From Chlorokybus atmophyticus (lineage: Eukaryota > Plantae > Mesostigma and Chlorokybus algae): a DNA stretch of 61,457 bases. The translations under genes were made by a program, and so were the position numbers. Position 1 is the first letter of the stretch; each line of letters begins with the position of its first letter. The stretch lies in the NCBI GenBank assembly GCA_009103225.1, contig RHPI01002071.1, forward strand, positions 26,281 to 87,737, read 5' to 3'. The notes beneath the pieces were generated by a model. The model made no database searches. It was given only the letters and a program-made list of their open reading frames with translations, and was not told the origin of the DNA. Shown piece by piece: positions 2,524 to 41,717 of this stretch.

Positions 2524-2963
2524 TGCTGATGCATCTGCCACCAACACCAGGGGAGGTTGCCAACAGTTTGAAGACTCCGTCAATAGGTTTAACATTCACT
2601 TAACAGTATCAAATGCGATACAACATGGATGCAGGAGGGACGCCCACGATAGACCAGGCCAGCCTTTGGCGATTCCTTTGACGTCTTCATCGTCACCTGC
2701 CGGACGCTATCTGGGTCCAGGCATGGCCATCACCAACCAATGTGGAAATCTGGGCACAAGAAACGCTTGAAGGCTATTCAACAAGATCCCACGATTAGCT
2801 ATCCGCTGGACGCTTACTTGCTACATGACGACCATGCCCGTTTGAATAATGCCATCACTGCACGTGTACACACCCTGGCCCACCTGGTCCACTCAGTATT
2901 AGAACTCCTACAGTTGTCTCCACAACAACCAACGCAACTAAGTAGCCTGAAGGCATGTTGTCA

Positions 2964-3567
2964 TGTCATCCCATTGCCCGCGCATACCAGCCTTCATCGA
3001 GCATGCCTACATCGAACCCATCGTCCAGCCTACCAGCATACTAGCGCGCGCGCGGAGCTGACCAGTAGCTAGGTCATGACTCCGGAGTAGCTCACGACCA
3101 TAGCCTACATATGCACCGCGCGTAGCTATTTGGTTGTGAGTTCAGTCATAAGTTGTGTTCTATATCGAGTGGCGATTGCTGTGGAAATAGCCTCGATATG
3201 ACCATTAGCTTATGTTCTAAACAGTCATGATTTAACTTGTATAAGTAGTCACAGTGCTCACGGGATCAGCTAGTGACACTGTGAGTGAGAAAGCTAAGAG
3301 CTTGTGAAACGACTTAAACTGCGAACTCGCCATCCCGGTTATCAAGAACCCCCTCACTGTGTGAGAGCCAGTGCATGCTCATGTGTGCATCATGCTCATC
3401 ATTGCTGTGAGCTTGGTGTGTCTATTTGCACTCTGTTTGTTGGCATCAGTTAGGGCATAGTATTCACGTGTTGCTTGCTCATTCACCTCACTCAACAGTG
3501 TAACACATTTTCCGCTTATGCAACCAGCTGCTTAAACAGCACTACCTTTAGTAGTGCTTTGTTGACT
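2964..3567 (+). repeat. Terminal repeat 'B' (copy 1)
   Basis: Colinear, roughly 85% identical by eye, with the reverse complement of 10893-11497. Starts with TG. Confidence 0.85.
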
Positions 3568-4150
3568 CACAGTGTCACCCTCTTTGCTCAAATGAGTGCG
3601 TTGCATTCTGCATCAGATAGTGCAGTCTGTTTCTGGGGACACATCCTTGTGCATTTATCATCATTGTCATTAAATAGTGCGCACACAAGCACGAGTGTGG
3701 TTAGTGGTAGCGGCATTGAGACAGGCAGCAGAGCACAAATACTCTACCCTGCATACACTTTCACATGTGGACGAGCTGTATACGAGCAGGCCCACCCCGT
3801 TCTCTCCAGTAGACAAGGGTGACCTCAGCAGCTGGAGCCCAACCTCCAACCTCACCTACAAGCGGCCAGCGACGGGAGCAACGATCGTAGCAGCAGAGGC
3901 TCACGTTCTGTCTCTGACTTCACTCCGTTCCTGTCTACTCCTCGGCATCGAGCTTCCCCACTCTCGTCCGACAGTGACGACTACGAGATGGAGTCTTCCA
4001 GCTCAACCACGTCCCTGCGCTTTTTCGGACGTGCTGGCACTACCTCACTGGACGAATTCATCATCAACTTCCATTCCAAGATGAGACAGCAAACTCTGAA
4101 CAAGAAAGACTGGTCAAATTGAGATTTCTTTTTACATTGCTGCTCAGTAT

Positions 4151-5725
4151 GTGGACCATGAAGCACATGATGCCTGGAAGTCTGTTGCTGAACTGCATCG
4201 AGTTGATGGCTATGGTGAGCTCGCCAGTATCATAGCATCTGCGTCATTGCATAGTCCAGCAGCCGTCCTTCCACCTGCCACTTCCGCTGCAATCATCGGA
4301 TTGTCCATAGCGGCAGCCATTGACAGAGCAGAGGAGGAGGAACCTGTGTCTATAATCGTCAACTTAACCCCTGCAGAGATTGAGATCAAGACGGCCGCGC
4401 GACAAGCCCAAATTCTGGACCGTTCTGCTGCCATTCTCGAAGAACAACGAACTGCAGCCGTTGAGGTGGGCACACCCCTACCTTTAGCAACACCTGGCTC
4501 TCGTGCGGGGGGCAGTGCTTTCACCCTCGGGTCAGTCGCACTGCGCGCACCAGCCATCACTGTAGGTGCTGCCATCTTTGACTCTCCACTCACGGACCTA
4601 TACGCTGCACTTCGTCGCACCTTCCCAACGCAGACCACTAGTAAAGTGGAGGAGTTGAGGCGGTTCCGATGCAAGCCCAACGAGGACCCCCTACGCCTAT
4701 ACTCCAAACTGGAAGGGCTGTTGAAGGACACTAACTACAAGATCGTTAGTCACGAGGCTGCTGCAGTGGTATATGCCAATGAGATGGATGCCACCCTGAG
4801 CGAGTCGACGCGCCTGACCCTGAACTACAGCAGGCCCCTTGGCTACACGGTCAAGGAAGCTTTCGTGACTGCACAAGCCATCCATAAGCGCTTGGTGTAT
4901 GAGAAGGCAGTGCTGGACACCAACCACAGCGCCTGACGGCCTGTAGCCAGCACAACTGCCGAGCCTCCTCACCGCGAACGTGGCCGGGATGCTCCACCAG
5001 CACGCGACAAAGGGAAACGGTCAGCGCATACTGCTTTGCCTGCCCCCGTGCTGTGTCATCGCTGTGGACGGCATGGGCACTACCACAAGGAGTACACCAA
5101 AGAATACTCAACTCTGATCTGCGACCACTGTTACAAGACATGCTACTTGAAGTCAGTCTGCTGGCTCAAGTTCCCTAAGTTGAGACCCGCCAACAACTAC
5201 AACGGCAACAACTCTGGTGGCTACAACAACAATTATACCGGAGGCCATAACAACACCAACAACTGCGCCAACGCTCGCAAGGAAGAGCAAGGCTACAGCG
5301 GGAAGAATCGCCCTCCTCAGCGCAAGGTACTGGAAGGACGTCCGCGCGCTACTGCTGTTGCCGCCAAGGCTCCAGCCAACCCGCCAGCTGATGACCATAT
5401 GGCTGCCCTTATGGCGCATATGGCACGCTTGGAGGAAGACAAGGAGCAGGTCTACCGCGCCTGCTACTCTGCTCAGTGGGCATTGATGGCTTTAAAGCGC
5501 ACGAAAGACATCAGCACGCCGTTATGTATTCAACCATCTCGACGAGTTCAATGGGAAGCCGCAACATCGTCGGCAGCTACCTCCTCTGAAGCCACCAGTG
5601 GTGCTGCACCAGCCGCAACAGTTACACCCGCTACGCCGTCGATTCCGTCAACGTCAGCAACAATTGCTCCAATTTCACTAGATATTGGTATACCAGTGAG
5701 CACCGTAACGCCAACACATTGGTGA
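4151..5725 (+). pseudogene. gag: Gag (capsid-like region plus two degenerate CCHC zinc knuckles), with stops/frameshifts
   Basis: ORF 4151-4936 (DLYAALRRTFPTQTTSKVEELRRFRCKPNEDPLRLYSKLEGLL) is helical and Gag-like. ORF 5036-5725 has CHRCGRHGHYHKEY and CDHCYKTCYLKSVC, followed by an N/G-rich and T/A/P-rich linker. Confidence 0.7.
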
Positions 5726-7966
5726 GCACGCTGGCAACAGCCACTGCTGTCACCCACCCTACAGCAGTAGGTCGCACCGATCCCGCTGCAGCTGCAGGAC
5801 CACCTGTGTTTGCAAGCGTAAATACCACTCTCACGCCATTGAGCGGCACTCTCGCCACCACCGGCAGTGCCATCGTCAAGCCTGCTTCCAGCTGCGAAGC
5901 GCGCAGCTGCATTGCCCGCTCTCGACATTACTCAAGCTGTCCCGCGAGGTCAGCAAGCTAAGCGTGCTTGGGAGACCATCATGCGTGGAGCAAATCCCAC
6001 TACCATTGCTTTTGGGCGCGGAGGGGAGCGCACAACACGCGTTGAACGCAGTGACCGCGTCTTTCCATTGCATGAATATCACACCCTGTCAGAACAGACT
6101 CAGCGGCAACTAGAGGATGAAATTCTCGCCGGCACGGCGCCTCCCATGCGAGACCGTGTTTTTGTGGTCAGAACACCTGTTGTACTGGAGTTGGCACTAC
6201 AGCTGTTCTAAACTCTGCATAACAACATGCAGACTGCGCCACACGCCAGCCCGCACTAGTCCGTCATGTTCCCTTTAAGCTAAGCCCGCTGTACACGTAT
6301 TGGGACCGGCAACCCAACGTACAGCAGCACATCGCTGATACAGCCGACATGCCTCTGGGTGACAATGAAGCACTGAGACCCCTCAGTACCGTTCAGCTTC
6401 GTGAGCGCTACACCGCTCTGGAACAGGCGTTCACCTAGCGACAGGATCAAGCGGCAGCAATCAATACAAGAGCGCAAGCCCTTGCCAATGCTCGCGCTAG
6501 CGATCTTCAACCCACGGTTGCTGGCCCACCATCCAGCACAACACCTCTCGTCGGTGAGCCCGACATTGACCAGGTGCGGACGCTGGCCAAATAAGCCATT
6601 TGGGTGATCACCCCGCTGCTACCCGCCTTGTTGAGAGACTTGTCGGACGGTTAACGGGATTCAGGGAGAGGCTACCTCACACCACAAGGGTGTACACAAC
6701 GAGATGGAGCAGGCTTAATCGGAAAACAGCAACTTCGCGCAGCCCTGTTGCGACAAGCAACCATGCTACATCGACAAGAAGGCATCGGCCTGAGACGGAT
6801 GTTGTGGATGCGAGAAGGTGTCAATGCAGCTCGCGCAAGAATAGTGACTTGGCTAGTCACCACTTACCCCGCAGTCCCTTTGTTCGCATTCGGCACTAGA
6901 TTGTTATGGTTGAACGCCTTCCTTCGCTCGCTACGGCAAGCCTATGCCGAGGTTGCCTCGGCAGCTATTAACGCCTTAAAAGGAGCTCAAGAGGCCATAC
7001 TGAGGTTGCCAAGGGTGGAAGCAGCGCGGCAACGCAGACGCTTCGCAGCTGCTTATAAGCAGCATGTTCAACAGCCAGAGATTTACCTCACTGTGCGGGC
7101 ACGAGCAACAACGGCTGCTGAAAGTGGGGGTGGTCAATGGCAAATGCACTTGTCGAAATGGGTTTCGGCAATCCAGGTTGGATCCGCAACTTTGTAATGA
7201 TCGAAGCCGGACATTATTTGCGGATTTCGCAAATTTTACGGCGGATCTGTATATATGTTGTAGCTGCAGCCGGTGATTTATTGCGACCTGTCACAAATGG
7301 AAATCCGCCGGTAACGATCGTAAGTACCGGATCCCCAATAACGTTGAGAATTCGGTGTTTACATAATGAAAGGTTCAGGCCGTGAGAAAGACTTGTGTAA
7401 GTCGCAATCGCAGTTGTGACCAATTCGTCAACAATGCGTCTTTACTCCCTAACGCAATTGAGGACTCCACGATAACATCAAAATGCATTTAGGTTGCATG
7501 CTAAAGCCGTACACATTCACATTGAAATTGTAACCGGTTCCATCAATGATACAAGACTTCATACATAACAAACCAGGAGCGCTAGGAACGATCCTTCCAT
7601 TGTTTTAAACCATAATAATATTACGACCTCATCATTGCCAAATTGCCGGTTCAACCCCGCGGCTATTTCGCCCCGCGGTCTGCTAGGAGCAGGCCGCGGG
7701 GCAAGCAAGTAAAAGGCTGCGACTTGCATGTATAATCATTGGTAAACTGTGGTAGCACAGAGGTAAACATGTAAAGACTTGACCCCAACTCCGCAAGCAA
7801 CCTTGCGCCAGCAGGTGACGCAGGGCGCATAATGCAAACATCTGTCGGTGATCTCGCGCTGTGATTAAACAGAACGGCAAGTCGAACAAAGTCTCCCTTC
7901 CCAAGTCCCCCCCTTTATATGTATATAATTGTGAATTCCACCTTCACCTTTATCTTTTATACAAAC

Positions 7967-7968
<2 letters not shown>

Positions 7969-8026
<58 letters not shown>

Positions 8027-8038
8027 ACACTACCGCGG

Positions 8039-8069
<31 letters not shown>

Positions 8070-8104
8070 ATGTATATGTATATATATGTATATATACATA
8101 TATC
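7969..8104. repeat. (TA)n microsatellite plus degenerate TATG/TA tract
   Basis: Direct reading of the sequence. Confidence 0.95.
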
Positions 8105-8336
8105 GGTAGTGCCGTTGTATGCAGCTGCTGGTGCATGCGTGATGCATGCATTGAGGCAGCCGCTATAAAGGTTATACAAACGCGTTGCAAGATGTCTCGT
8201 GTCCTCGTAGTCTAGCCGGTCAATGTCTAGGTCGTATGCTGTTGCGTATTAATGCATCAGACTCTCCCGCGCAGGTACAAAATCCGGCAACGGAAGAATG
8301 AAAACCCATGTGCGGTGGCTCTTTTGGTTTTTCGCC

Positions 8337-8725
8337 GCAAACTGCGGCCATGACATTTCTGGTTAGATCACGCATTAAGATTAATCCCCTTGATACATGA
8401 TCTAACTAAAATGAGTGTAGGATATGGCTGTTATGAAGTTCAAGAAAAGTCGAATAACAAACTGAATGCACACCAGCTAGTTGACCTTAATGGCAGCTCG
8501 ATACCAAACAAAGTTGTGGCTGCAGCAGCAAAACTGCGGCCATAACATTACTAGTTAGATCACGCATTAAGATTAATCCCCTTGATACATGATCTAACCA
8601 AAATTAGTGTAGGATATGGCTGTTATGAAGTTCAAGAAAAGACGGATCTTGAACTTAATGCACACCAGCTAGTTGACCTTAATGGCAGCACGATACCAAA
8701 CAAAGTTGTGGCTGCAGCAGCAAAA
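8337..8725 (+). repeat. Tandem duplication, period 192 bp (2 copies)
   Basis: GCAAAACTGCGGCCAT...GTTGTGGCTGCAGCA at 8337 and again at 8529, with few mismatches. Confidence 0.9.
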
Positions 8726-8894
8726 AGTGCAAAAATGGATATGTTGCTTGCATATGGATCCCCAATTAAGTTATAGCTGGATCTCCATTTCAATTGTGGG
8801 CAAGGCTAGATTGTTGGGGGGCTATTTCTCTGGTGATGGGATGCCTACATGGCAAGGATCCCAAGGGCTCCCACCATCACCCACGACATAAGAG

Positions 8895-9343
8895 TGTAGA
8901 GATGCGTTGACAAACCGACACATGCACATGTGTGCACGCCACCCAACACCAACGCCAAGAGGCTGCAACAACAAGACTAAGACTAAGACCATCTATTGCC
9001 ATTATGTCCGCGGGTTTTATACCCGCCAGGAATACACCTGTCTACTCTAGAAGCCACCACGTTTGCTACACTTATTTGAATGCTGCGTTGTAAGAAGCAT
9101 CTCGTAGCTACTTTCAAGGGCTATCTACTAAGCTCTAGAACGTCCAAGTCGGTGCAGTAATCACCGAGTTATGACGATTCTCGTGCAGGTCGGGAAGTTG
9201 CCAGACTCCGGACTCGAGTCCGCGCCTGGAACCCTCACGTGCCTGGAACTTCCGACTTGAGTCCTCGCCCAGAGCCTTCTCGCGGCCATTCCTATTCAAA
9301 GGGCAAGCTGACCGTTCGCCTGGATGTAGGAATGTTTTTAACA
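8895..9343. mobile_element. Solo LTR (449 bp) nested in Gypsy copy 1
   Basis: Starts TGTAG and ends TAACA, flanked by a perfect 5-bp TSD AAGAG (8890-8894 and 9344-9348). Removing it restores colinearity with copy 3. Confidence 0.85.
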
Positions 9344-9651
9344 AAGAGCGCGGCTCTTGCGCGCAGTATATCTCTAGCCCATGCCTCAGAATCACCGCTT
9401 GGGTGACATGGTCAACAACCCAACAGCTACATGGGAAGGTACACTAGTCAGGGAGGCAGCTCATGCAGCACGCTGGACTTATGTGGAAGAACAGGCTGCA
9501 CGGGAGGCGGGCCCACAAACACCCGATCCTCCAGAGTTTCCCCAACAGCTACTGGCTACGCCGCCAAGAATAACACGGCCACACAGAGGCGTAGTCCCTG
9601 CGCCACAACCCGAGCAGCCACACGCAGCACCGCCAGCACCCAAGCCACAGC

Positions 9652-10185
9652 GTGTTTATCAACAGCCAAAACAAGGACGGTTCGGGTCAGGCCGCGGTGA
9701 AAGGTTCTCAAGATCCAGCTGGTCGAGGGGCGCTTGCCGCACTGCGCTCGACACCACCGGAGGCGAATGCAGCAGCAGTCACCCCACGCACACGCTATCG
9801 ACGATTCAAGCGGCTGCGCATCCACACCAACGCAGCCATGATCGCCAACCAAGGCAAGCATGTCACTATTAATGAACGAGTACCCAAGCGTGTGATGCTG
9901 GACTCTGGAGCTCAGCCTGTCATCATCGGACGTTACTTCGCACGCAACCTTGGCATCACCAGCGCTGAGCTGATGCCGTGCCCATACGTGCTCGACACAG
10001 CAACCGGCAGCCGTGACAAGGTGATTGGCATGACCAAGCAAGCCCTCTGTATTCGCTTGACAGGAGTGGACCCTTCCCACAGCACCGAGGTCATACAGAA
10101 GTGTGTGGTCACCAACGTAGGAACCTTCACCCTGTTGCTAGGACAGGACTTCAACTTCCCTGTTGGCATGGGGCTGGAATGCTAG
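9652..10185 (+). pseudogene. Retroviral-type aspartic protease of Gypsy copy 1
   Basis: RVMLDSGAQPVIIGRYFARNLG (D-S-G-A catalytic motif) and the later FTLLLGQDF motif. Confidence 0.85.
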
Positions 10186-10666
10186 ACAGAGAAGGCATGG
10201 TTTCGTCCTCATTGGGATGAGGAGGAAGGAGAGGTTCAAGGATATTTCCTCTCGAGCTGGTGGCTTGCACTCGCTGTCACCGAAGGTCAGCTGCAACAGC
10301 TACATACAGGTCGTTGTTGACAACCGCTAACAGGTTAGCTGCAACAGCCACCCACATGTCGGTTTTAACAACCACTGACGGATCAGCTGCGGTGGTCACC
10401 CACAATTCTGGCCAAGACTCTCCTATCCGACACGACAAGTCACAGGAAGATGCCACTGAAGAAGTGGCCCACAAGAAACCAGTGGAACGCCGCTGGCGCA
10501 CAGAGGTGGTCGCACATCTACTACTGACAAAATTAATCAAACTGTAGTCCGCAAGCGCTGATAGCGGTGTGGCACCAGTGGTGGAAGTAAATCGTTGGGC
10601 TCATATTGGTGAGTGTGTCGATGACGCATAGCCTCAAGCACATCTCTGAGCACCCTGTCTTCATAT

Positions 10667-10900
10667 TGTCGGGTCGAGGAGAATCGAGGGTCACACTTTG
10701 TCGGGCCGCTGCAGGGAAAGACATGCTTGCTAGCCCTGTTGCTGCAACATGTTGTAACATGTAGCAAAAGTAAAAGATAACCCAGCTCGGATGGCGAGGA
10801 GTGCTTGGTGGAGCTACTCCGCTGTCGCTGAATTGCACAAACATGTGGAGGCGGTGTCCTCCTTAGTGTACATGCTGTGCTGTAGGACACACAGTCAATA
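10667..10900 (-). repeat. Terminal repeat 'A' (distal copy, 234 bp)
   Basis: Direct repeat of 11500-11733 and inverted relative to 41487-41717. Ends CCCGACA on the minus strand. Confidence 0.9.
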
Positions 10901-11497
10901 AGCCACTACTATAAGTAGTGCTGTTTATACAGTTCTTTGCATGAGCGGAAAATGTGTTACACTGTTAAGTGAGGTGAATGAGCAAGCAACACGCGGATAC
11001 TATGCCCTAACTGATGCCAACAAACACACTGCAACCAGGCACACCAAGCTCACAGTAATGACGAGCACGATGCACACACGAGCATGCATAGGCTCTCACA
11101 CAGTGAGGGGGTTCTAGGTAACCGGGATTGTGTGTTCGCAGTTGAAGTTGTTTCACAACCTCTTAGCTTTCTCACTCACAGTGTCACCAGCTGATCCGGT
11201 GAACACTGTGACCATTTATACAAGTCAAATCACGACTTTTCAGAATATACGCTAACGGTCATATCGAGGCTATTTTCACAGCAATCGCCACTCGATATGG
11301 AAAACAACTTATAACTGAACTCACAACTGAACAGCTACGCGCGGTGCCTATGTAGGCTATGGTCGTGAGCTACTCTGGAGTCATGACCTAGCTACTAGTC
11401 AGTGACGCGCGCGCGTTGGTATGCTGGTAGGCCGGGAGATGGGTTCGATGTAGGCATGCTCGATGAAGGCTGCTATGCGCGGGCAATAGGCATAACA
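10901..11497 (-). repeat. Terminal repeat 'B' (between the two A copies)
   Basis: Starts TGTTATG on the minus strand and is homologous to 2964-3560. Confidence 0.88.
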
Positions 11498-11499
11498 GG

Positions 11500-11733
11500 T
11501 ATCGGGTCGAGAAGAATCGAGGGTCACACTTTGTCGGGCCGCTGCAGGGAAAGACATGCTTGCTAGCCCTGTTGCTGCAACATGTTGTAACCTGTAACAA
11601 AAGTAAAAGGTAACCCAGCTCGGATTGCGCGGAGTGCTTGGTGGAGCTGCTCCGCTGTCGCTGCATCACACGGACATGTGGAGGCGGTGTCCTCCTTTGT
11701 GTACATGCTGTGCTATAGAACACACAGTCAACA
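11500..11733 (-). repeat. Terminal repeat 'A' (PPT-adjacent copy; LTR-like TGTTG...CGATA)
   Basis: Immediately follows the polypurine tract, with imperfect inverted ends as in LTRs. Confidence 0.88.
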
Positions 11734-11787
11734 AGCCACACCCCCCCTCTGACCTTCTGCGGAGGTTCCAGCTCCAAAGCTCAGTTG

Positions 11788-11985
11788 TTAGCGCAGGTGA
11801 GGAGGACCGTTGGTGCGGCTATCGTCGCACCAGTACTCCTCGATGGGTATTGCGTCCAATGGGGGCTCCACGCAGTAGCAATGCAGGCCCTTGTTACAGC
11901 CGTCGCAAAGCATCATGAGTGCGTCGTCCCCGGCGCTGCCGCAGCGTTTACAGCGTGTGCTGCGGGCGGGGCGAGGGTGCTGGAT
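11788..11985 (-). pseudogene. PHD finger at the C-terminus of integrase
   Basis: CKRCGSAGDDALMMLCDGCNKGLHCYCVEPPLDAIPIEEYWCDDS matches the C4HC3 PHD spacing, with the last Cys lost. Copy 3 retains WCDNC. Confidence 0.9.
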
Positions 11986-12049
11986 GCGCGTAAAGCCAGC
12001 TATGTAAGGAAGGTGACATGGTGCCCAGTTTACCATGTTGTCTTTTAAC

Positions 12050-13050
12050 CTATTGCCATTCTGACCAAGGAGGTCCAGCACTCCTGTGGTGTACCTGCTT
12101 GAAACCGTCGTTGACGCTCCTTGTAGAAGCCACTCCGCACGCGCTCGTCGCGCAGGGTGTCGCGGTGCTGTGCAATGCGCATGTTGTTGAAGGCCATTGG
12201 GACGGTGTGCTCGAACAGCGCGGCGCGTGTGGTAATGTCGTGGTGCATTCAGTTAGATCGTTGAGGTTGTTCACCACACGGTCTACTTCTTGTTGTGCAC
12301 GACAGGGAAGCAATGGCGGACGCCCGAACAGCAGGTAGTATGGACTGTACTCGCGCAGAGCCACCTGCTTTGATGATTGATATTCAAGAGCCACCCACAG
12401 AAGGTGGTCGTCTCAGATGTTCTTTTTCATACTCCATCACGTACTTGCGGAGTGCCTTCTTGATGGTCTGTACTGTCCGCTCGGCGGGACCGTCGGCTTG
12501 GGGTTGGTAAGGTGAAGTGCGACGATGATCGATGTAGCATCTAATCAATATGGTGTCGAACTCCCCTGTGAACTCAGTGCCCTGGTTGGTGATGACCTCA
12601 GCGCAGCTGCCGAACCGGCTGAGGACATGGGAGAGGAAGGCTTGAGACACCCCCCCTGCTGCTCTTGTCAGGTAATGGCACCAGCTCCACCCATTTGAAA
12701 AAGTGCTTGATCATGACCAGGATGTAACGGTTGCCACGCGCCGAGGGTGCCAAGTCTCTCAAGATGTCGAGTCCCCAGCGATAGAAAGGACCGGAAATGG
12801 GGAGAGGGTGCAAGGTGGCGCTGCGTGTGTTGAGGCCGGCGCGTACCATATCACACTGCTAGCAGCGACATACGAACCCCTGCACCTGTTTGGACAACCC
12901 ATACCACCAATATTGCGCCCTTACCAGGCTGACGGTATGCTTGACACCGAAGTGTCCAAGCTCAGTGTGGAGGGCAGCAATGATGCCCTCGCGTGTGGCT
13001 GGTGTCGGCACCTCTTTGTCCTCGTTATGGACGCGGCGGTACACCTTATC
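12050..13050 (-). pseudogene. Integrase (HHCC zinc-binding plus rve DDE core)
   Basis: LHTELGHFG...YWWYGLSKQVQGFVCRCD; RWGLDI; VITNQGTEF; SPYQPQADGPAERTVQTIKKAL; YSPYYLLFGR. Confidence 0.92.
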
Positions 13051-13429
13051 ATCCGCTCACCAATAGTGGCGGGTGCATCGATTGACACGATCTTTCTCTC
13101 GTGCACTCATACCGGAGAGCAGCTGGCCACTTTGAAGGAAGGATAGTGATAACTTGTCCAGCCATATGTCCTGCCTATATTGGTGGGTGCCAGCTCGGTG
13201 TCGTCGACTTCAACATCGACCGCGTGGACGTCCCTTGGGGGTGTGGTCACTGTGGGGCCGGTGGACTCAAGGGCAAGATTCTCCTCTACCGTTGAGGCGG
13301 CGGTAATGTTGATTTGGCGCCCTGAGGGTAACGCGGCAACAGCAAGCATGGCCGCCACGTCGGAGCTGTTGCAGGGCCGAGCTCGTGCCGAGCTGCCGTT
13401 GCATCGTTGGTACTGAGGTGAGGGTTGCG

Positions 13430-13810
13430 ACTAAGGCCATCGGCGTCTTGGTTGGTGAGGCCGGCGCGGTGGTCGATCCCAAAGTCATACTCCAGCAACA
13501 ACAGGGCCCAGCGGGCAAGTTTTTCTGTCGAATGTCGGTTGGTCATCAACCACTTGTGTGGCTGATGATCGGTGATCAACTGGACTTGTCGACCAAAGAG
13601 GAAAGGTCTGCATAAGGTATTAGCCCACACTGCAGCAAGGCACTCCCCCTCATAACTGATGTAGTTGGCCTTAGCGTTGTTGTTGCTTCTGCTAGCGTAC
13701 GACACCACCCTCTCCTTCTTGTTCTCATCATGCTACACCAGCACAGCCCCCATCCCAAGCTTGCTCTAGTTGGTGTGGAGGATGAAGGGCTTGTCGTAGT
13801 CAGGGCGTTG
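13430..13810 (-). pseudogene. RNase H (Ty3/Gypsy type)
   Basis: KPFILHTN*SKLGMGAVL; SYASRSNNNAKANYISYEGECLAAVWA; TDHQPHKWL; DADGLSR. Confidence 0.9.
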
Positions 13811-13849
13811 CAGGATGGGAGCAGTGGTGAGCCTGCCCTTTAGCTCCTC

Positions 13850-14720
13850 AAATGCCTGCTGTTGTGGCTCCTTCCGCGCAAATTGCACTTCCTTCTTCAG
13901 AAGCTGGTTGAGGGGTCGCGCGATCTTTGCAAAGTCCTTCACAAACCTGCATTAGTAGTTGGCAAGGCCAAGAAAGGCGTTCAGGCGCGTAAGGTCTTTT
14001 GGAGCAGGGATAGCCGCCAAGGCCTTCACCTTTGCCTGCTGTACGTACACACCGTGGAGCACAATCATGTGCCCTAGGTAGGGTACCTTGCGAGTGAAGA
14101 AGGTGCACTTGTCCAGGAACCGTAACACCCCCTTGAGTCTCTTCAGCACTTCCTCAATGTGCAGTAGGTGCTCGTTGTTGCTGCGGCTGAAGATGAGAAT
14201 GTCGTCAATGTAGCATTGCGCGAGGTCTAGCCCCTTCAAGGCTTTGTCCATAACGCGCTAACACTTGGCAGGAGCATTCTTTAGTCCGAAGGGCATGACC
14301 TTTCACTGGGACAGCTGTCGGTTGCCTAAGAAGGAGGTCTTATGCTTGTCCTCCTCTTTGATGGCGATCTGGTTGTACCCTTGTCGCATGTTCACGATGC
14401 TGAAGACGGTACAGTCTCCTACATCATTAGCGATACCCTCTGCAGTAGGCATTAGATACCTGTCTTATTTGGTTTTGTTGTTGAGGGGGCGATAATCACC
14501 GCACATTCGCCGGTCCGTCCAATTGCCTGCTGAATCCTTCTTTGGGGGCATGACGGTCGCGGCCGCAAAGTCCGATGTGGACTCCTCAATCAGGCTTGCA
14601 TTTTGCAGAGCCTTGCACCTATGCTCCACCAAGTCTTCTTCCAACTTGGAGCGTCAGTACCGTTGTTGAAACACTGGTTCGGTGTCCACCAACTCGATGT
14701 CCATCTGGTAAACCAAGCAA
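13850..14720 (-). pseudogene. Reverse transcriptase
   Basis: RMCGDYRPLN; MPFGLKNAPA; CYIDDILIFS (YxDD); VPYLGH; LNAFLGLANY. Several in-frame stops. Confidence 0.95.
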
Positions 14721-14949
14721 ACGCCCAGCTCGTTCGCGCTAAAACTAAATTGACTCCTCCACTTGTTGAAGAGAGCCTCAAGTTGTTCTCGCGTCTAGCC
14801 TGCAGCCAGTGGTCCAATGGTATGGGACCAAGAGGTAGCATTGGCGAGTACTAGGATGTCCTCCACATTGACTGCTGCCTGCTCCTTTATATGGGCGATT
14901 TTAAGGGCGGTGTGTGCCGCTTTGGTCTCTTGCAAGCGATCGGCCCACC

Positions 14950-16549
14950 CCCCCGCCAGGTATTTGAGCTCTTGGACACATGGCCATCCTGGAGAGTAAA
15001 GCATATTTCCAATAACCATACCATGCTGTTCTGATCCATGGCGCGTCTCAACAGCTGACATTGCTGACTGTTGGTCAGCGTGGAACCGGTGATACTGCCT
15101 GGAGAAAATCCCATGGCTCATTCGCGCTCACGTGCATTGGGTTCCTCCAATTGCCCTGTGTTGAAATTTAACACCATGCCTTTGCCGTGGTTGCGGAAGG
15201 CGTATAATCAGGGTAAGACATCAGAGTGGAGAGCGCACGACGTGGTTGACCAGGCTAATTGCACTGGTAGAAGTGCTGGTGATCGTGTCGGGTGACTGGT
15301 TGTGCTGTGCGCCTAGGGTCAAGGATAGCATTGACGGTGAGATCGCGTGGACGACTGCTGTGCAGATATTTAGCAGTGAAGAGATCCTCGACTGTAGCCA
15401 GGTTGGTCCACTTGGTGCGGACGCGATGAGCACGGGAGCCATAACGCGCTGCGTTGATTTTGAGAGGGTGTCCCAGTAATGAACACACCAGGCGAAAGTT
15501 GTTGGCCACGTGATGGCGCTTATCGTCCTCGGAGTGCACATTCTCGATGATATATTTTGGAGGTTTGCACAGCTGGTTGCTCTGCACGATTCTGATGATA
15601 CGCATTAGTTCTTAAAACAGACGCGAGCGGCTTTTGGGCCACAAGGGCGGCGGCAGCAAGCTTGTTGTTGGTGGTGGTGTAGTGCAAGGTTGGGTGGCGG
15701 TGACGGCGAGGGCAACCGGTGGACTGACGAGAGAGTACACGAACCAAGTCGGCTGCAAGCGGTGTTGTTTCCTTTTCCCTACGCTCGAGGCGGCCGTGCC
15801 AGGCTCACGGTAAGCGTGTGTAGGCAGGGAATTGTGTTTATAGCAGCAGCGGCAACAGCAGCACCAGCTACCGTTGCTGCTGCATGTCTGTGTATATGTA
15901 CGTGTTGGCCTCAAGCGGTTGTGGTGAGAATGTGTGTCGTTGGTTGTTGACACTGCAGCACCTGCTGTTATCAACTAATGATGCATTTGTGGATGTATGA
16001 TTGCATCCAATGTGATGAAGCACATGTCGTGTTTTACGAGGCGATGGCCAGGTGTGTCGGTTCTACAACGTGATGGCGCTTATCGCCCTCGGAGTGCACA
16101 TTTTCGTTAATATATTCTGGAGGTCTGCACAGCTCGTTGCTCTGCAGAATTTTGATGATACGCATTAGTTCTTAAAACAGTCGCGAGCGAGGATCAGAGA
16201 GTCCTTGGCCTATGCCTGCTCTGGAGTGTCCTTGACACTCCCATCCTGCTATCAGCAGGTCGATGTTGCCCACCGCCAAGAGGTGATCCGCAGTGATTAA
16301 ACGGATGTCCTGTGGCAGTGCCTTCAAACTGCCTTGCAGTGCCGATAGTAGCAGCCGCTGCGGGTAGCATTTGTGTAGGTGGCGCAGGTGGTGGCGCAGG
16401 GCAAGCTGTGCGTGTGGATCAGGGTCACAGTAGAAGTACTTGGTGACCGTCGCGTCAGTGTTGAGGACCGCGGCGAGGCCACTACCTATACCTCCAAACA
16501 GTTCCAACACGGTGATGCCTTGTTGTCGACGAAATACGTGAAACTCCAC
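14950..16549 (-). pseudogene. Cytosine-5 DNA methyltransferase domain inside the Gypsy pol, split by an internal duplication/insertion (15509-16192)
   Basis: Motif I VLELFGGIGSG; motif III-IV DIR...IDLLIAGWECQGHSRAG (catalytic Cys); motif VI YIIENV; motif VIII GSRAHRVRTKWTNL; motif IX/X region ERE*AMGFSPG...QLLRRAMD. Confidence 0.9.
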
Positions 16550-16947
16550 TACTCAAGTGGCCACCTGGTGTTGCTCCTCAACCGCAGCTTGGTCCTTGTG
16601 GAGAGGGAACCGCGAAGTGAGCCGTGGTTACAACATGCAAAGAGTTTTGCCTCCCGCACCAATTTTTAATTTCACAATGCCCTCGGCGGAAGGCAAACAC
16701 CCTCGCACAACCACGCACGCTGGTACAGGACACACCCCATCAGCACTCACTCAACCCATTGCCTCCCACGCCGCCGGTACCCCTGCCATCTGAATTGCCG
16801 GCGCCTGCAGACAACACCTTGCACCAGCAATTATTTTGGCTGGCACCCACCAATGACGCCGAAGCCGTGTTTCACAGGTAAACGGCGATTTGGCTTGAAG
16901 CAATCGTAAACGGCGCATGTAGTAGCATTCATTGGGCGGTGCATGAT

Positions 16948-18700
16948 TGTTACAACGGCCTTGCAGGATATCATATAAATTAAACCCAATTTTATGTACA
17001 GTAATTACAAACTTACCTACACGTGACTGTACACCCCTTTAACCACCATTTGTTGACTTAAAAACTACTAGGTACCTAGGGGTTATGGGAACATGAGTTA
17101 CTTAGCCTCACATAGTCTTAAGCTTTTGCCGCGCTCCCAAATCGGCCTTGCCGACCCGCGACTAGCTACCCACTTAAGGTTGAGATAATCAGTATATGCT
17201 TTGCTAGAAACTTTTCTGGGCGCTTTGCCTATCGCTAGTTCACTCTTAGCCCACTTGAATCCTTCAGATCGCTTAGACTCTTTAGCTCATTAACAAGCAA
17301 CCTCTAATATGCCCAATAATTTTCCGAGGGGTAAATCACTCTCGCGCGGTGATGGGAGGCGGCGCGCGACATGCGCAGCATGCAAGCGTTGCCGCGTGCA
17401 GCCATATCCATGCCTTGGCAATTTTTCGCGACATCTTTTCGCGGACATGATCTGTTAGATAGTTCATGTGTGAACTGATATTAGTTCACACATTCACACT
17501 TGGCTTAGGCACCGCCTATTGCCCTATCTTCTAATTCTTGGTTTCAACATTAGCTCACTAGTGAAACAACGACTATAAACTACCTGTTAAGTCACAGTTG
17601 CAACCTAAAACCCTCCAGTATTTACAACAACCTATTCCTGCGTGCGATGATGAGAGGGCGCGTCGCCTCTTTCACATACACACACATTTCTAGCGACCTT
17701 GGGGACTCAGCCGTTTTTGCGTCAACTCCTCTTACGACAGTGAACCAATGTTTAGTTCACTTATCTACTGTTTAATTCACTAATCAACTACTTAGTTCAA
17801 CATGATTCAACTTTATCGCTAGCTTCACTTAGTTCACTTAATTCTCTTTGGGTACTTGAACTATATCTTGTTCATTTTTGCGAATAGTTCAGTAACTGAA
17901 TATAGGTCACATTTCGCTAACTCTACATAATTGTTTATGCTTGAGTCATTCAATACCCTTTGTAAAAAATAGTTATGCTTCTCGCCTTTTATAAATTGGC
18001 GAACTAAGATTGTCGTGAGGAAACTAATTGGTTGATTCACTTCAGTTCACTTGTGGACTATCCTGTTAATCTATAAGCGAACTCATCTTAGTTCTTACTA
18101 ATACCCTTCCTACCTACTTAGTGGGCGCCCGCGATTTTTGTCGCGGGTACCCTTCTCACCTGAAAGTAAGGGGCGCCGCGCAAAGGGGCTCCTCGCAGCG
18201 TCTTTATTCGGAAATTATTCACTAATTAGCGATCTAGATAGGTAGACAGGTAGCGCGTTCTTTTATCTTAGGTACATGTTTTCATGATTCCAATAGGCCG
18301 CCTTGGAAGGCCTCCAATGAACCTCATAATTACACATGCTTGTTTTCCTGATCATTAGAGTGATAAGGCCCATAACCCTGCATCACCTTATTGGATCACA
18401 ATATTTAAGTCAATGTGCTTTTATCTTCATATTCAAGATGCCCATACATTCATGAGTAGGGTAATTCCTTGTGTAACCACTATAATTGAGAGCATTTACA
18501 TGCATCCTTATTAGCCAGGTCTTTTATTAGCGATGTCACGCATTCATATTTGAAAATTAAAGCTCAAACACAAATACATGCATTTATAAAACATCTCTAA
18601 TAAACCAAGATATAATTCAAGGTTTACTAAACTTTTATCTTTTGCTAATTACACTTATCTATACACTGTACATGGCTAGCATAATAGCTATGCCGTAACA
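16948..18700 (-). repeat. 3' LTR of the chromovirus-like element (1753 bp)
   Basis: Termini TGTTAC (16948) and GTAACA (18700) are perfect 6-bp inverted ends, with the PPT adjacent at 18701-18712. Confidence 0.88.
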
Positions 18701-37129: not shown

Positions 37130-40100
37130 GTGGCGCATCATCAATAGCGGCATCGTCGGAAGCCACAAGTGGTGCTGCCTCGGCAGCCACAACCATTGCT
37201 GGGTCGACGCCATCAACAACACTATCGGCATCCACACTAACCACGACAGCAGGTGCAAGCACCCCTGGCACCATGCTATCTCCGGTGATGGAAAGCACCG
37301 ACGCCGCGGCAGCCATGGTCGTCGGGTTCGGGGGTGGTGAAGCCACCACTCCTGCCTTCATTGGAGCCACGGCAGCAGCCACAATTGCTGCCACCCCTCA
37401 CGGCTGCAACCTCGGTGACGACAACTGCTGCAGGTGTCACAACCATCACTTCAAGTGATGCTGCCGCACCCATGGCAATACTACCACCTGAGGATTGAGC
37501 AGCACCACCACCAGCGCTTGATGTCACTTAGCAAGTGCCACGCGGACCGCAAGCAGCCCGAGCCTGGGCGTCCGTTCTGCGCAACATCGAGCCCACCACC
37601 ATTGCGTACGGACCGGGGGGCAGCGCACCACACGTGTGGCACGCGATAATTGCATCTTGCCCCTACCACCTCCAGAGTACCACACGCTACCGGAACCCAC
37701 CCAGCAACAGTTGCAGGACGAAATTCTCGCCGGCATTGCTCCGAAGATGAGGGATCGGCTCTTCGGGGTCACCTACCGGCGACCCGCTGTGTTGGAGCTG
37801 GCCATACAACTGTTCTTGGCGTTGCACGCGAAGCTGCAGGGCGCACCCAGCCAATCGCGACAGCCAATGCCCGCGCAACAGATTGGCTTCGAGCCCTCAG
37901 TGCTGGACCTACTCAGACTTCAGCGCCGTAAAGAAGACCTCGTAGTGACCACGGCGGACATGCCGTTGGGCACTGACCTCGCGCTTCGAGGGCTCACCCA
38001 GGGAAGCCGGCAGGAGCGGTTTTCTGCCCTTGAACAAGCACATCGCTATTGAGTGGACCAAGCAGTACAAGTTGACGCACGCCGTGAAGCGTACGAGGCA
38101 GCATACGCCGTTTCAGTGCCGATCGCGGCGGCGACGGATGTCGCCAGCACCTCTACTACAATGACCGTGGTGCAGCCCACATCAACCGCAGTCGCTCCGC
38201 CAGGGCAAGCAATTGGTGCGGAGGGCTTTGGCTCAACAATTAAGGGGGGTAATCGCCTCGCTGCTGCCTTTACTGGTTGAAAACATGCCCAACGATCAAC
38301 GCGATTTAGGGTTGTGTGGTGTCCTCTTGTGGGGTGGTACCTCACCCCACAAGGGGACACCACACAACGAGGAGGAGCTGATATGGTGGGTGAGCAACAA
38401 CTCCGCACCGCACTCATATGACAAGCAGTTTTGCTGCATAAGCCTAAGGGCAGTGCATTAAGACAGATGATGGGGATGCGATGAGAAGGCAGCGCCACCC
38501 GAGCACGTCTCGTGACATGGCTCGTTGCCAACCACCCTGCCGTCCCCATGTTTGCCTTTAGCAATAGAGCACCATAGTTGGGGGCATTCGTTCACTCGCT
38601 GCGACAAGCCTTTGATAAGGCTGCCACCACGGCTCCGGATACGATGGAGGTAGTGCAAGAGGCAATGGTGCAGCTGCCAGGGGTAGAAGCAGCACGGTAA
38701 CGACGGCGCATCGCCATTGCTCATGAGCTACACGCACAGCAGACTGACCCCTAGCGCACCATACGTGCACGCGCCATGACCGTGCTCGATGTGGGTGTGG
38801 TACAAGGAAGGTGGGATGCCTACATGTCAGGGATCTTACGAGTCCCAACAATCGCTCACGACATGCGGCGACAGCTACTACGTGCAGTGTACCTGCAGCC
38901 CATGCCTCAATACCATCATTGGACTGACATGGGCACGGAGCCCACGGCCACGTGGGAAGGGACATTGGTCAGAGAAGCGGTTCATGCCATCCGATGGACG
39001 TACGCCGCAGAGCAAGCTGAACGCGACGCAGGCCCACAAACACCGGTGCCTTCAGGTTTTCCTCCACAGCCATTGAGTACACCCACGGGCATGATCCCAT
39101 CCTCGCAGAGACAGCGTCCACCTGTACCGCCACTACAACCGGCGCCGCAACACCCAGCACCATGGCCTCCCCGTGTCTACCAACCACCACAACAAGGTCG
39201 GTTCGGCAGAGGGAGAGGGCAAGAAGGGGGTCCTCTGGACCCAGCAGACAGAGGATCTTTGGCTGCACTGCGCTCAGCACCCCTAGCTGAGAGACATGAG
39301 GCCCGGATGGTGGCAGCCCGCACGGAGAGGCTGCGCATCAACGCCAACGCGGCCATGGTTGCCAACTAAAGCAAGCACGTGATCGTCAATGGACTGGCAC
39401 CCAAGTGTGTGATGACCATAATGAGAACAAGAAGGAGCGGGTGGTGTTATACGCCAGCCGAAAAAAAAAACAGCGCCGAGGCCAACTACAGCAGCTACGA
39501 GGGGGAGTGCCTCGCTGCAGTGTGGGCTATCTCTTTCTTCCGACTTTTCCTCTTCAATTGACAATTTTAATTAACCACCAATTATTAGCCACTTAAGTGG
39601 TTGATGATCAACCAACATCTGACCAGGGAACTTGCTCTCTGGGCCTTGCTGGTGCAAGAGCATGACTTCGAATTTGACCACCGCGCCGGCCTTGTAAACC
39701 AAGACGCCAATGGCCTCAGTAACCCTCACCTCAGCACCAACGATGCAACCGGAGCTCGGCATGAGCTCGGCCTTACAGCGGTCGCTCCCACCGTTGCACC
39801 CGTGTTTGCTGCTGCCGCGTTACGCTCAGGGCGCAAGACCAACACCACTGCCACATCAACGGCGGAGGAGATTCCTGCCCTTGAGTCTACCAGCCCCACA
39901 GTGACCACACCCCTAGGGGACGCCCACGCGGTCGACATTAAAGTCAAACAAAAAGCTGGCACCCACCGACACCAGGCAGGCCATATGGCTGGACAAGCCA
40001 TCAATCTCCTTCCTTTAAAGTGGCTAGCTTCCCTTTGGCATGAGTGCACGCGAGAGAGATTGTGTCAACCAACGCACCCGCCACTATCGGTGGGCAGACG

Positions 40101-41717
40101 ACAAGCTGTATTGCCGCTTTCATGACGAAGACAAGGAGGTGCCGACACCAGCCACACGCGCGGGCATCATCACTGCCCTCCACACTGAGCTTGGACACTT
40201 CGGTGTCAAGCGTACATCAAGCCTGGTAAGGGCACAATGTTGGTGGTATGGGTTGTCCAAGCAGGTGTAGGGTTTCGTTAGTCACTGCCAACAGTGTGAC
40301 ATGGTGCGCGCCAGCCTCAACACACGTAGCGCCACCTTGCACCCACTCCCCATCTCCGGTCTTTGCTATTGTTGGGGACTAGACATTGGGAGACTTGGCA
40401 CCCTCGGCACGTGGCAACTGGTACATCCTGGTCACGATCGAGCACTGCGTCAAATGGGTGGAGCTGGTGCCATTACCCGACAAGAGCAGCAGGGGGGTGT
40501 CTCAAGCCTTCCTCTCCCATGTCCTCAGCCGGTTCGGCAGCTGCGATGAGGTCAGCACCGACCAAGGCACTGAATTCAGAGGGGAGTTCGACACCCTTTT
40601 ACACAGATGCTACATCGATCACCGCCGTAACTCACGTGACCACCCCCAAGCCGGCGGTCTCGCCGAGCGGACAGTACAGACCATCAAGAAGGCACTCCGC
40701 AAGTACGTGCTGGAGTATGAAAAAGAACACCTGAGACGACCACCTTCCGTGGGTGGCTCTTGGATATCAATCATCAAAGCAGGTGGCTGCGCGCGAGTAC
40801 AGCCCATACTACCTGCTGTTTGGCCGTGCGCCATTGCTTCCCTTTCGTGCACAGCAGAAGGTAGATCGTGTGGTGAACAACCTTGACGATCCCAACTGAA
40901 TGCACCACAACATTACCACACGTGCTGCGCTGTTCGAACGCACCGTCCCTATGGCCTTCAACAACCTACGCATCGCGCAGCACCGTGACACTCTGCGCTA
41001 CGAGTGCGTGCGCAGCGGCTTTTACAAGGAGCGCCAACGGCGGTTTCAAGCAAGGGACTTTGCCTATCGCATGGCAGCCACCAAGGACACGCTTGACACC
41101 TCCGTGGGCCGCACCGTCTACAAGGTACTTAAGGTGTACCCCACAGGGGTGCTGGACCTCCTGGGTAAAAATAGAGAGAGGTTGTAAGACAACATGGTGA
41201 ACTGCGCGCCATGTCACCTCCCTGACGTAGCTGGCTTTGGGCGCATCCAGCACCCTCGCCCCGCCCGCAGTGAACGCTGCGGCAGCGCCGACGACGACGC
41301 ACTCATGATGCTCTGCAATGGCTGTAACAAGGGCCTGCATTGCTACTGTCTGGAGCCCCCATTGGACGCAATACCCATGGAGGAGGAGTATTGGTGCGAC
41401 AATTGCCGCGCCAATGGCCCTTCTCACTTGCGTTAGCAGCTGAGCCCTGGAGCTGAAACCTCCTCAGAAGCTCAAGGGGGGTGGCTTGTTGACTGTGTGT
41501 CCTACAGCACATCATGTACATTAAGGAGGACACCGACTCCACATGTCCGTATAACTCAGTAGCAGCGGAGCAGCTCCACAAAGCCTTTGTCGCCAGAGCT
41601 GGGTTATCTTTTGCTTTTGCGACACGTTGCAGTATGTTGCAGTAGCATGGCTAGCAAGCATGTCTTTCCCTGCAGCTGTCCGAGACAGCGTGACCGTCGA
41701 CTCTCCTCGACCCGACA
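37130..41717 (+). mobile_element. Ty3/Gypsy copy 3 (same lineage), internally deleted from the protease N-terminus to mid-RNase H; retains integrase, PHD, PPT and repeat A
   Basis: 37130-39414 is colinear with 5565-9895. At ~39414 it jumps into the RNase H (ENKKERVVLYASR). Integrase at 40100-40900 (STDQGTEFRGEFD, GLAERTVQTIKKAL). PHD CNGCNKGLHCYC...WCDNC at 41270-41406. PPT at 41474-41486. Repeat A at 41487-41717. Confidence 0.9.

What the first reader, a model, noticed from the sequence alone, without database searches (positions are those of the whole stretch)
11788..16549. Gypsy polyprotein carrying both a DNA-methylation writer (C5-DNMT) and a histone reader (PHD)
Seen: on the minus strand the order is DNMT (motifs I, IV, VI, VIII, X) - RT - RNase H - integrase - PHD, colinear and without introns. 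Copy 3 independently shows integrase-PHD. Established: retrotransposon capture of cytosine methyltransferases was reported in Symbiodinium and Klebsormidium (de Mendoza et al. 2018), and PHD fingers read H3K4 state. Inference: the element may methylate its own cDNA (self-silencing or camouflage) and target integration through the PHD, as chromoviruses do with a chromodomain. Motif IV reads GWECQ rather than the usual PC.
Basis: partly seen in the sequence, partly recalled or inferred. Interest (0 to 1): 0.75.

Follow-up and report, generated by a model that had tools for sequence, protein, structure and literature searches.

The report
Gypsy with DNMT3 and PHD finger
This is a dead, rearranged copy of a jumping gene whose protein carries both a DNMT3-like DNA methyltransferase and a histone-reading PHD finger, a pairing also present intact in dozens of relatives, where the enzyme likely methylates the element's own new DNA and the finger likely steers insertion away from active promoters.

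Summary
The domains are real and in the stated order, but this copy is dead. It has stops and frameshifts, a 560-bp duplication-plus-insert in the DNMT, and a degenerate PHD. The element is larger than reported: about 2959-16628. Its Gag and protease lie on the + strand, cut off by an inversion of 10529-16628. It has split repeats (A-body-B-A-B), as described for KnitGypsy-Dnmt3 of Klebsormidium.

The pairing is not chance. P0206 is an intact ORF in the same order. Of 120 listed DNMT homologues, 86 also carry the PHD; in 99 of the 120, including all named chlorophytes, the DNMT sits between RNase H and integrase. The catalytic Cys is present in 138 of 138. 'GWECQ' is a family variant (62 of 138), not decay. 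The DNMT is DNMT3-like. The PHD lacks the methyl-lysine Trp and most resembles readers of unmodified H3.

Likely mechanism (untested): the element methylates its own cDNA and tethers to H3K4-unmethylated chromatin. Gypsy-DNMT3 and Gypsy-PHD are each in print; I found no text describing them together. This scan has reported the family before, in this genome and others.

The parts
2959..3567 (+). Terminal repeat A1 (5' end of the element, begins TGTCA)
   Evidence: 89.1% identical to A2 over 598 nt; junction sequences
4100..5500 (+). Gag with two zinc-knuckle-like Cys/His motifs, one stop
   Evidence: tblastn of P0206 residues 181-422 to 4553-5206, E 9e-8; no Pfam hit
7135..9359 (.). Stretch absent from copy 3 (TA microsatellite, 192-bp tandem repeat) interrupting the Gag-protease region
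   Evidence: the flanks 6673-7134 and 9360-9897 match adjacent parts of copy 3
9712..10230 (+). Aspartic protease (LDSGA), the only one found in the window
   Evidence: Pfam PF13650 E 2.2e-6; family HMM E 1.3e-13; P0206 614-763
10529..16628 (-). Inverted block holding the whole 3' half of the element and about 140 bp of 3' flank
   Evidence: X1 contigs join 10528 to 16612 and 16628 on opposite strands; 3 contigs run from 16628 into the sequence ending at 10528; in copy 3 both halves lie on one strand
16061..16525 (-). DNMT3-like C5 methyltransferase, motifs I-VI (ELFGG, GWECQ, ENV), one stop
15630..16067 (.). Copy-specific insert between the two copies of a 122-bp duplication in the DNMT
   Evidence: X1 depth is 0 at 15623-15977, and one contig skips 15551 to 16178 (short side 31 nt)
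14990..15629 (-). DNMT motifs VI (duplicate), VIII (HRVRTKW), target-recognition region, IX and X; one frameshift, 4 stops
13421..14830 (-). Reverse transcriptase (YIDD) and RNase H in one frame, 8 stops
   Evidence: Pfam RVT_1 and RT_RNaseH; 50% to P0206
12093..13170 (-). DDE integrase (H2C2 region and core), frameshifted, second Asp reads Asn
   Evidence: sequence
11824..11952 (-). PHD finger C-terminal to integrase; last ligand Cys is Ser in this copy
   Evidence: Pfam PF00628 E 7.6e-9; PDB hits; alignment
11741..11750 (-). Polypurine-tract-like run AGAGGGGGGG directly before repeat B1
   Evidence: sequence, also present in copy 3
11500..11740 (-). Repeat B1
   Evidence: 93.3% identical to B2
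10893..11497 (-). Repeat A2
10667..10906 (-). Repeat B2 (3' end of the element, ends GACA)
38338..41717 (+). Copy 3: Gag-side sequence joined directly to RNase H (protease-DNMT-RT deleted), then integrase, PHD and one B repeat
   Evidence: dN/dS against copy 2 is 0.27-0.37

Best explanation
The finding is the inverted 3' half of a dead Ty3/Gypsy retrotransposon with split terminal repeats, from a green-lineage clade that encodes Gag, protease, a DNMT3-like cytosine methyltransferase, RT, RNase H, integrase and a C-terminal PHD finger; in active members the methyltransferase likely methylates the element's own cDNA and the PHD likely tethers integrase to nucleosomes with unmethylated H3K4.

Shown: the domain order; the split repeats; the pairing in intact relatives; invariant catalytic residues; the DNMT3-like affinity; the missing cage Trp; purifying selection on the PHD.

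Inferred: the DNMT is packaged with Gag-Pol, where the new cDNA is the nearest substrate. The PHD biases insertion away from H3K4me3 promoters. A new copy would then arrive pre-methylated in silent chromatin, at low cost to the host. The PHD came first; the DNMT was likely captured once and later moved within pol.
For: Same-order intact ORF: P0206 (2358 aa) has protease, DNMT, RT, RNase H, integrase and PHD by Pfam and maps colinearly onto both halves of the window element.

Prevalence: 86 of 120 listed homologues have DNMT and PHD; 64 of 120 have DNMT, RT, integrase and PHD in one ORF. L004 is one more intact 1997-aa ORF.

Catalysis: Cys 138 of 138, E and N of motif VI 139 of 139, second Arg of motif VIII 138 of 138, at a mean identity of 37-48%.

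Class: the best PDB hits are DNMT3A/B/C (E 6e-18), ahead of bacterial enzymes (1.6e-10) and DRM (2.6e-8).

PHD: the top PDB hits are UHRF1/2, KMT2C/D, WSTF, BAZ2A/B, ATXR5 and KDM5 PHD1. None of 112 family PHDs has Trp two residues before the His ligand (that this is the cage column is recalled). The Trp marks methyl-K4 readers (PMC5415848 passages). PHD dN/dS between copies 2 and 3 is 0.36 over 58 codons.

Tree: both DNMT layouts are sisters (UFBoot 91) inside a PHD-bearing clade (100) whose earlier branches had no DNMT hit.

Precedent: DIRS-borne DNMT3s methylate CG de novo in yeast. Gypsy-7a_cRei has a PHD and 2.6-fold more intergenic insertions than chance.
Against: No activity or binding was measured here. 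The KnitGypsy-Dnmt3 domain showed no methylation in yeast, which the authors call inconclusive. The PHD is not universal: P0072/P0177 and the Closterium proteins P0007 and P0053 end after integrase without one. Only 1 of the 21 window-type proteins has DNMT and PHD in one ORF; 15 of the 21 end after the DNMT region, some by truncation. In the window type, DNMT and PHD are over 1000 residues apart with RT between, so they need not act together. The conservation counts come from hits chosen with a profile that holds these motifs and include near-duplicates. KMT2C/D PHDs are among the top PDB hits and their specificity is not that of a simple H3K4me0 reader (recalled). The intergenic bias of Gypsy-7a may be selection after insertion. 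The DNMT-tree split between the two layouts has modest support (0.90 and 0.46).
Confidence: 0.55

Rival explanations
1. The DNMT stays joined to integrase-PHD and methylates the integration site or host chromatin that the PHD finds, as a reader-guided writer, rather than the cDNA in the particle.
For: In 99 of 120 listed homologues the DNMT lies directly before integrase; 85 of these also have the PHD. DNMT3A is guided by an H3K4me0-reading ADD domain (recalled).
Against: In the window type the DNMT is upstream of RT, and in many relatives the ORF ends 81-173 residues after it, so there it cannot be fused to the PHD. Protease cleavage sites were not mapped.
Confidence: 0.2
2. The DNMT is kept for a role other than 5mC on DNA (RNA methylation or nucleic-acid binding), and the PHD is an unrelated ancestral accessory.
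For: No activity of the Klebsormidium Gypsy domain in yeast. Pro of the PC motif is Glu in 62 of 138 sequences. DNMT-less PHD elements exist (P0142, P0137).
Against: All catalytic positions are invariant or nearly so. The closest structures are DNMT3, with DNMT2 ranked last. Human DNMT3B also failed in that yeast assay.
Confidence: 0.2
3. The + strand Gag-protease half and the - strand half are two separate elements, or the inversion is an assembly error.
For: The Gag side is only 65-69% identical to copy 3, while pol is about 84%. No clear target-site duplication (ATGT vs ATAT). No contig was seen that spans the window's own breakpoints.
Against: A1 and A2 are 89% alike. X1 contigs join exactly these two points. 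The window holds one protease and one DNMT. An assembly error would not change the family's architecture.
Confidence: 0.15
4. The DNMT is a chance nested insertion next to RT in this copy only.
For: Copy 3 has no DNMT.
Against: Copy 3 has lost protease and RT as well. X1 depth over the DNMT is 38-159, and a contig bridges its end to the pre-RT linker. Intact ORFs have the same order.
Confidence: 0.01

Closest known systems
KnitGypsy-Dnmt3 of Klebsormidium nitens (de Mendoza et al. 2018, PMC5890265; read parts 1, 3 and 4 of 7 of the main text, term passages, and term searches in 3 supplementary files; Fig. 4c and the main supplement were not available)
   Same: Intronless DNMT3-like domain in the pol of a Gypsy element, conserved catalytic residues, DIRS-like split repeats with Gypsy domains, and a DNMT that groups with streptophyte elements.
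   Different: The word PHD does not occur in the main text or the 3 readable supplements, though the unseen figure could show one. The paper reports one species; relatives here come from Closterium, Marchantia and chlorophytes (Haematococcus, Chromochloris by its gene id, Monoraphidium, Hariotina). A second layout, with the DNMT between RNase H and integrase, is not mentioned in what I read. No Klebsormidium sequence was retrieved for direct comparison.
PHD-bearing Gypsy elements of Chlamydomonas: Gypsy-7a_cRei (PMC9940879, passages) and REM1 (Perez-Alegre 2005; paper not held, seen only as cited)
   Same: A PHD finger in a green-algal Gypsy, proposed to guide insertion; Gypsy-7a has LTRs with sub-parts.
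   Different: No DNMT is reported. The legend lists the Gypsy-7a PHD before integrase, like P0137, whereas here it follows integrase.
EpiLTRs of Cymbomonas and Euglena (bioRxiv 10.64898/2026.05.21.726589; passages and section 8)
   Same: A histone reader and a cytosine methyltransferase in one LTR retrotransposon.
   Different: The authors treat streptophyte Gypsy-DNMT3 as a separate acquisition.
SymbioDIRS-Dnmt3 (PMC5890265)
   Same: DNMT3 in pol, A-body-B-A-B repeats, shown to methylate CG de novo.
   Different: A tyrosine-recombinase element; here the integrase is of the DDE type.

Membership tests
Ty3/Gypsy LTR retrotransposon | pol order protease - RT - RNase H - DDE integrase | tested here: met
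   (protease on the other side of the inversion)
Ty3/Gypsy LTR retrotransposon | two complete direct LTRs, a primer-binding site and a target-site duplication | tested here: not met
   the repeats are split A...B-A-B; no tRNA-type primer site seen by eye after A1; TSD inconclusive. A PPT-like run and TG...CA ends are present.
Gypsy-Dnmt3 (KnitGypsy-Dnmt3 type) | intronless DNMT inside Gypsy pol | tested here: met
   intact in P0206. In this copy DNMT and RT are in different frames, so a shared ORF cannot be read here.
Gypsy-Dnmt3 (KnitGypsy-Dnmt3 type) | DNMT of the DNMT3 class | tested here: met
   PDB ranking of the profile, DNMT3A/B/C first; no tree with host DNMT families was built
Gypsy-Dnmt3 (KnitGypsy-Dnmt3 type) | DIRS-like repeat layout A-body-B-A-B | tested here: met
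   against the Fig. 1e and Fig. 4c legends
Gypsy-Dnmt3 (KnitGypsy-Dnmt3 type) | conserved catalytic residues under selection | tested here: met
   family-wide invariance; dN/dS on the DNMT itself was not computed
Gypsy-Dnmt3 (KnitGypsy-Dnmt3 type) | groups with the Klebsormidium elements in RT and DNMT trees | not tested
   no protein labelled Klebsormidium among the listed hits or the clusters looked up
Active C5 DNA methyltransferase | SAM-dependent 5mC formation | not testable with these tools
   this copy is broken; the family motifs are intact
Chromovirus | chromodomain at the integrase C-terminus | tested here: not met
   Pfam finds a PHD and no chromodomain in the window, L004 and P0206
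H3K4me3-reading PHD (aromatic cage) | conserved cage Trp | tested here: not met
   Gly 102, Ala 5, Pro 4, Leu 1 of 112; column identity recalled
Unmodified-H3-reading PHD (UHRF1/BAZ2/KDM5-PHD1 type) | binding to H3K4me0 peptide | not testable with these tools
   suggested by PDB similarity and the missing Trp only
DIRS / tyrosine-recombinase retrotransposon | tyrosine recombinase | tested here: not met
   DDE integrase present; no recombinase hit in P0206 or L004

The most novel reading that the evidence does not exclude
A Gypsy clade spread across both halves of the green lineage (chlorophytes, zygnematophytes, liverworts) has rebuilt the logic of animal DNMT3A from separate parts: a reader of unmethylated H3K4 plus a DNMT3 writer. 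After one capture, the chlorophyte branch moved the DNMT next to integrase, giving a DNMT-integrase-PHD module that would methylate DNA at the chromatin site it integrates into. It would do so with a non-canonical EC catalytic loop in almost half of the members.
Probability: 0.2. Interest if true: 0.8.

Novelty: new variant of a known kind. Interest (0 to 1): 0.48.

Why it matters
Why retrotransposons carry the enzyme that silences them is an open question (de Mendoza 2018), and the only Gypsy DNMT tested there was inactive in yeast. This clade offers dozens of naturally intact domains, two layouts, natural PHD-less and DNMT-less relatives, and cultured algal hosts, so the question becomes testable by comparison. 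It also extends Gypsy-DNMT3 from one charophyte to chlorophytes and a liverwort. It means many 'DNMT3' gene models in green-lineage genomes are probably transposon cargo. The EC-for-PC change, fixed in whole lineages (8 changes on the tree against 45 for shuffled labels), is a natural probe of the C5-methyltransferase catalytic loop. The window copy itself is a fossil.

Tried and rejected
- No whole genome is held for the window, so copy number was not counted.
- The genome-index DNA search gave only short matches. The protein search gave one weak bacterial hit among 20 genomes aligned. B11 holds 4 DNMT matches, but L005 ends before RT.
- The viral-contig scan with P0206 found nothing. The alignment was too diverse for pattern scans.
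- The single-sequence AlphaFold model of the L004 DNMT failed (pLDDT 39) and was not used.
- The first RT tree used the wrong window frame; it was redone. The grouping of the two window pieces in the DNMT tree comes from their duplicated overlap and means nothing.
- No RNA holder was listed; this is no evidence on expression.
- No repeat was found in L004; the contig ends 800 bp after the ORF.
- Target-site duplication was inconclusive, and no primer-binding site was seen.
- Whether a stop or a frameshift normally follows the DNMT in this subfamily could not be read from this copy. Relatives differ: read-through in P0206, P0072 and Closterium; ORF end in most moss-like and Marchantia proteins.
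- Literature: 9 searches found no text describing DNMT and PHD in one Gypsy, or the chlorophyte layout. The library lacks most subscription papers, REM1, the Craig thesis, figures, the main supplement of the 2018 paper and bioRxiv supplements, any of which may hold it.
- Rejected: GWECQ as decay; chance nesting; chromovirus membership; DIRS membership.
Full report
1. The observation. On the minus strand Pfam finds a C5 DNA methyltransferase (E 3.8e-9), RT (1.1e-21), RNase H (5.3e-31) and a PHD finger (7.6e-9) in the stated order. tblastn with intact relatives places a DDE integrase at 13170-12093. The copy is dead. The DNMT is read in three frames with 5 stops, and RT-RNase H has 8 stops. A 122-bp piece around motif VI is duplicated on either side of about 440 bp of unrelated DNA. 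The second integrase Asp reads Asn, and the last PHD ligand is Ser. Copy 3 (38338-41717, +) has integrase and PHD (E 1.4e-8) but jumps from just before the protease to RNase H, so it is silent on the DNMT.

2. The whole element. The window holds one protease (+9877-10230) and one DNMT. P0206, an intact 2358-aa ORF with protease, DNMT, RT, RNase H, integrase and PHD, maps in order onto + strand Gag and protease and then onto the - strand half. In run X1, one contig each joins 10528 to 16612 and to 16628 on opposite strands. Three contigs continue from 16628 into the sequence that ends at 10528. Copy 3 has both halves on one strand. I read this as one element with 10529-16628 inverted; a mis-join in the assembly is not excluded. 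X1 is a single run whose contigs are mostly 80-95% alike (100 of 1210 at 99% or more), so it shows other copies, not independent distribution. Its depth is 38-159 over the DNMT outside the duplicated stretch and 0 over the insert. One contig skips the insert (short side 31 nt), and one bridges the DNMT end to the pre-RT linker.

3. The ends. Repeat A1 (2959-3567) opens the element. After the PHD come a PPT-like run, B1, A2 and B2. A1 and A2 are 89.1% alike, B1 and B2 93.3%; K2P distances are 0.12 and 0.08. The outer ends are TGTC and GACA. This A-body-B-A-B layout is what the legend of Fig. 4c gives for KnitGypsy-Dnmt3: repeats as in DIRS, domains as in Gypsy. A target-site duplication could not be shown.

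4. Relatives. A profile search of proteins of 957-2730 aa gave 159 hits among 7997 scored candidates and listed 120. Of these, 86 carry DNMT and PHD, and 64 carry DNMT, RT, integrase and PHD in one ORF. There are two layouts. Type A (21 of 120) has the DNMT after the protease or before RT, as in the window; named members are Marchantia and, Closterium. Type B (99 of 120) has it between RNase H and integrase; named members are Haematococcus, Chromochloris (by gene id), Monoraphidium and Hariotina. Only P0206 among the 21 type A proteins shows the PHD in the same ORF: 15 end after the DNMT region, and P0072/P0177, P0007 and P0053 end after integrase without a PHD. RT-integrase-PHD ORFs such as P0037 group with the window in the RT tree and may be second ORFs of such elements. 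The DNMT tree of 144 rows separates the two layouts with modest support and puts the window in type A. In an RT-RNase H tree of 28 chosen rows, types A and B are sisters (UFBoot 91) inside a PHD-bearing clade (100) whose earlier branches had no DNMT hit. I infer that the PHD came first and the DNMT was captured once and moved; two captures are not excluded.

5. The enzyme. Solved-structure hits rank DNMT3A/B/C first (E 6e-18), then bacterial enzymes (1.6e-10), DRM (2.6e-8) and DNMT2 last. Among 139 family domains, Cys is present in 138 of 138 with a letter there, motif VI E and N in 139 of 139, and the second motif VIII Arg in 138 of 138. Mean identity is 37-48%. These hits were chosen by a profile and include near-duplicates. 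The residue before Cys is Pro in 73, Glu in 62 and other in 3. It needs 8 changes on the tree against a mean of 45 for shuffled labels, so EC is fixed in whole lineages of both layouts and is not decay.

6. The PHD's best structural matches are UHRF2/1, KMT2D/C, WSTF, BAZ2A/B, ATXR5 and KDM5 PHD1. None of 112 family PHDs has Trp two residues before the His ligand (Gly in 102). A conserved Trp marks methyl-K4 readers (PMC5415848, passages); that it occupies this column is from memory. Copies 2 and 3 diverged under purifying selection in RNase H, integrase and PHD alike (dN/dS 0.27-0.37; PHD 0.36 over 58 codons).

7. How it likely works. Inferred and untested: the DNMT is made with Gag-Pol and packaged, and it methylates the new cDNA. 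Integrase is tethered by the PHD to nucleosomes with unmethylated H3K4, so copies land away from promoters and arrive silent. Precedents are CG methylation by DIRS-borne DNMT3 in yeast and the intergenic bias of the PHD-bearing Gypsy-7a_cRei. Against it, the Klebsormidium Gypsy domain was inactive in that assay, and in type A the two domains are far apart or in different ORFs. I put this at 0.55, a PHD-guided writer at the integration site at 0.2, and a non-DNA role at 0.2. The identity of the element is much surer than the mechanism.

8. What is known. Gypsy-DNMT3 with split repeats: PMC5890265 (parts 1, 3 and 4 of 7, passages, 3 supplements searched; no 'PHD'; figure and main supplement unseen). 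PHD fingers in retrotransposons: called widespread in PMC6673714 (passages) and present in Gypsy-7a. Reader plus DNMT in one LTR element: EpiLTRs, with a chromodomain and a DNMT4-like enzyme. PMC12344493 (passages) and the 2026 preprint still place transposon DNMT3s only in streptophytes and dinoflagellates. Nine searches found no text on DNMT3 plus PHD in one Gypsy or on the chlorophyte layout; the library is incomplete. Earlier notes of this scan describe the same family in this genome and in moss and liverwort genomes. I had the split repeats and both layouts before reading them. They gave me the leads on the stop after the DNMT and on the palindrome, which I tested only in part. They are not independent evidence.

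9. Verdict. Real, a dead copy of a known kind of element, with an apparently undescribed PHD pairing, a much wider host range and a relocated-DNMT branch. New variant of a known kind; interest 0.48.

Noticed in passing
window 10665-10667, 41717-41719, 61374-61381, 2957-2964, 11497-11503: Three of four outer repeat ends have AT next to the GACA or TGTC terminus (GACA|AT twice, AT|TGTC once, GT|TGTC once). Together these would form the palindrome GACAATTGTC. The inner B1|A2 junction reads GATA-CC-TGTT. This fits the mid-LTR cut idea of earlier notes, which prompted the look; few cases, post hoc.
   Followed up: partly
window 3540-3556 (+) and 10920-10904 (-): Repeat A ends in a hairpin CACTAC-N5-GTAGTG, followed by about 14 nt that also form the start of repeat B. 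This could serve for strand transfer or end joining.
   Followed up: no
proteins P0193-P0203, P0208, P0230, P0246: Moss-like and Marchantia members end 81-173 residues after the DNMT (Gag-protease-DNMT ORF), whereas P0206, P0072 and the Closterium proteins read through into RT.
   Followed up: partly
window 19700-21720 (-): A second, unrelated and much more decayed AT-rich Gypsy pol (RT, RNase H, integrase).
   Followed up: no
window 16948-18055 and 23676-24826: A 1.1-kb repeat pair (75% identical) flanking 18-23.6 kb, possibly the LTRs of that second Gypsy.
   Followed up: no
window about 30900-35400 (-): An intron-containing host gene with a weak Zn-dependent phospholipase hit and FG-GAP repeats, resembling GPI-specific phospholipase D (name recalled).
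   Followed up: partly
window 43855-45562: Three near-identical (99.8-99.9%) tandem copies of a 568-bp unit.
   Followed up: no
window 49032-53726 and 57196-59052 (-): Long GC-rich open frames (250-620 codons) with no Pfam hit.
   Followed up: partly
window 12096-13400 against 39750-41052: Transitions between copies 2 and 3 are about twice as frequent at CG (12.8%) as at CHG or CHH (7-8%), consistent with CG methylation of the copies in the host.
   Followed up: partly
DNMT alignment, motif I: 42 of 105 chlorophyte-layout DNMTs have Cys in place of the motif I Phe.
   Followed up: no
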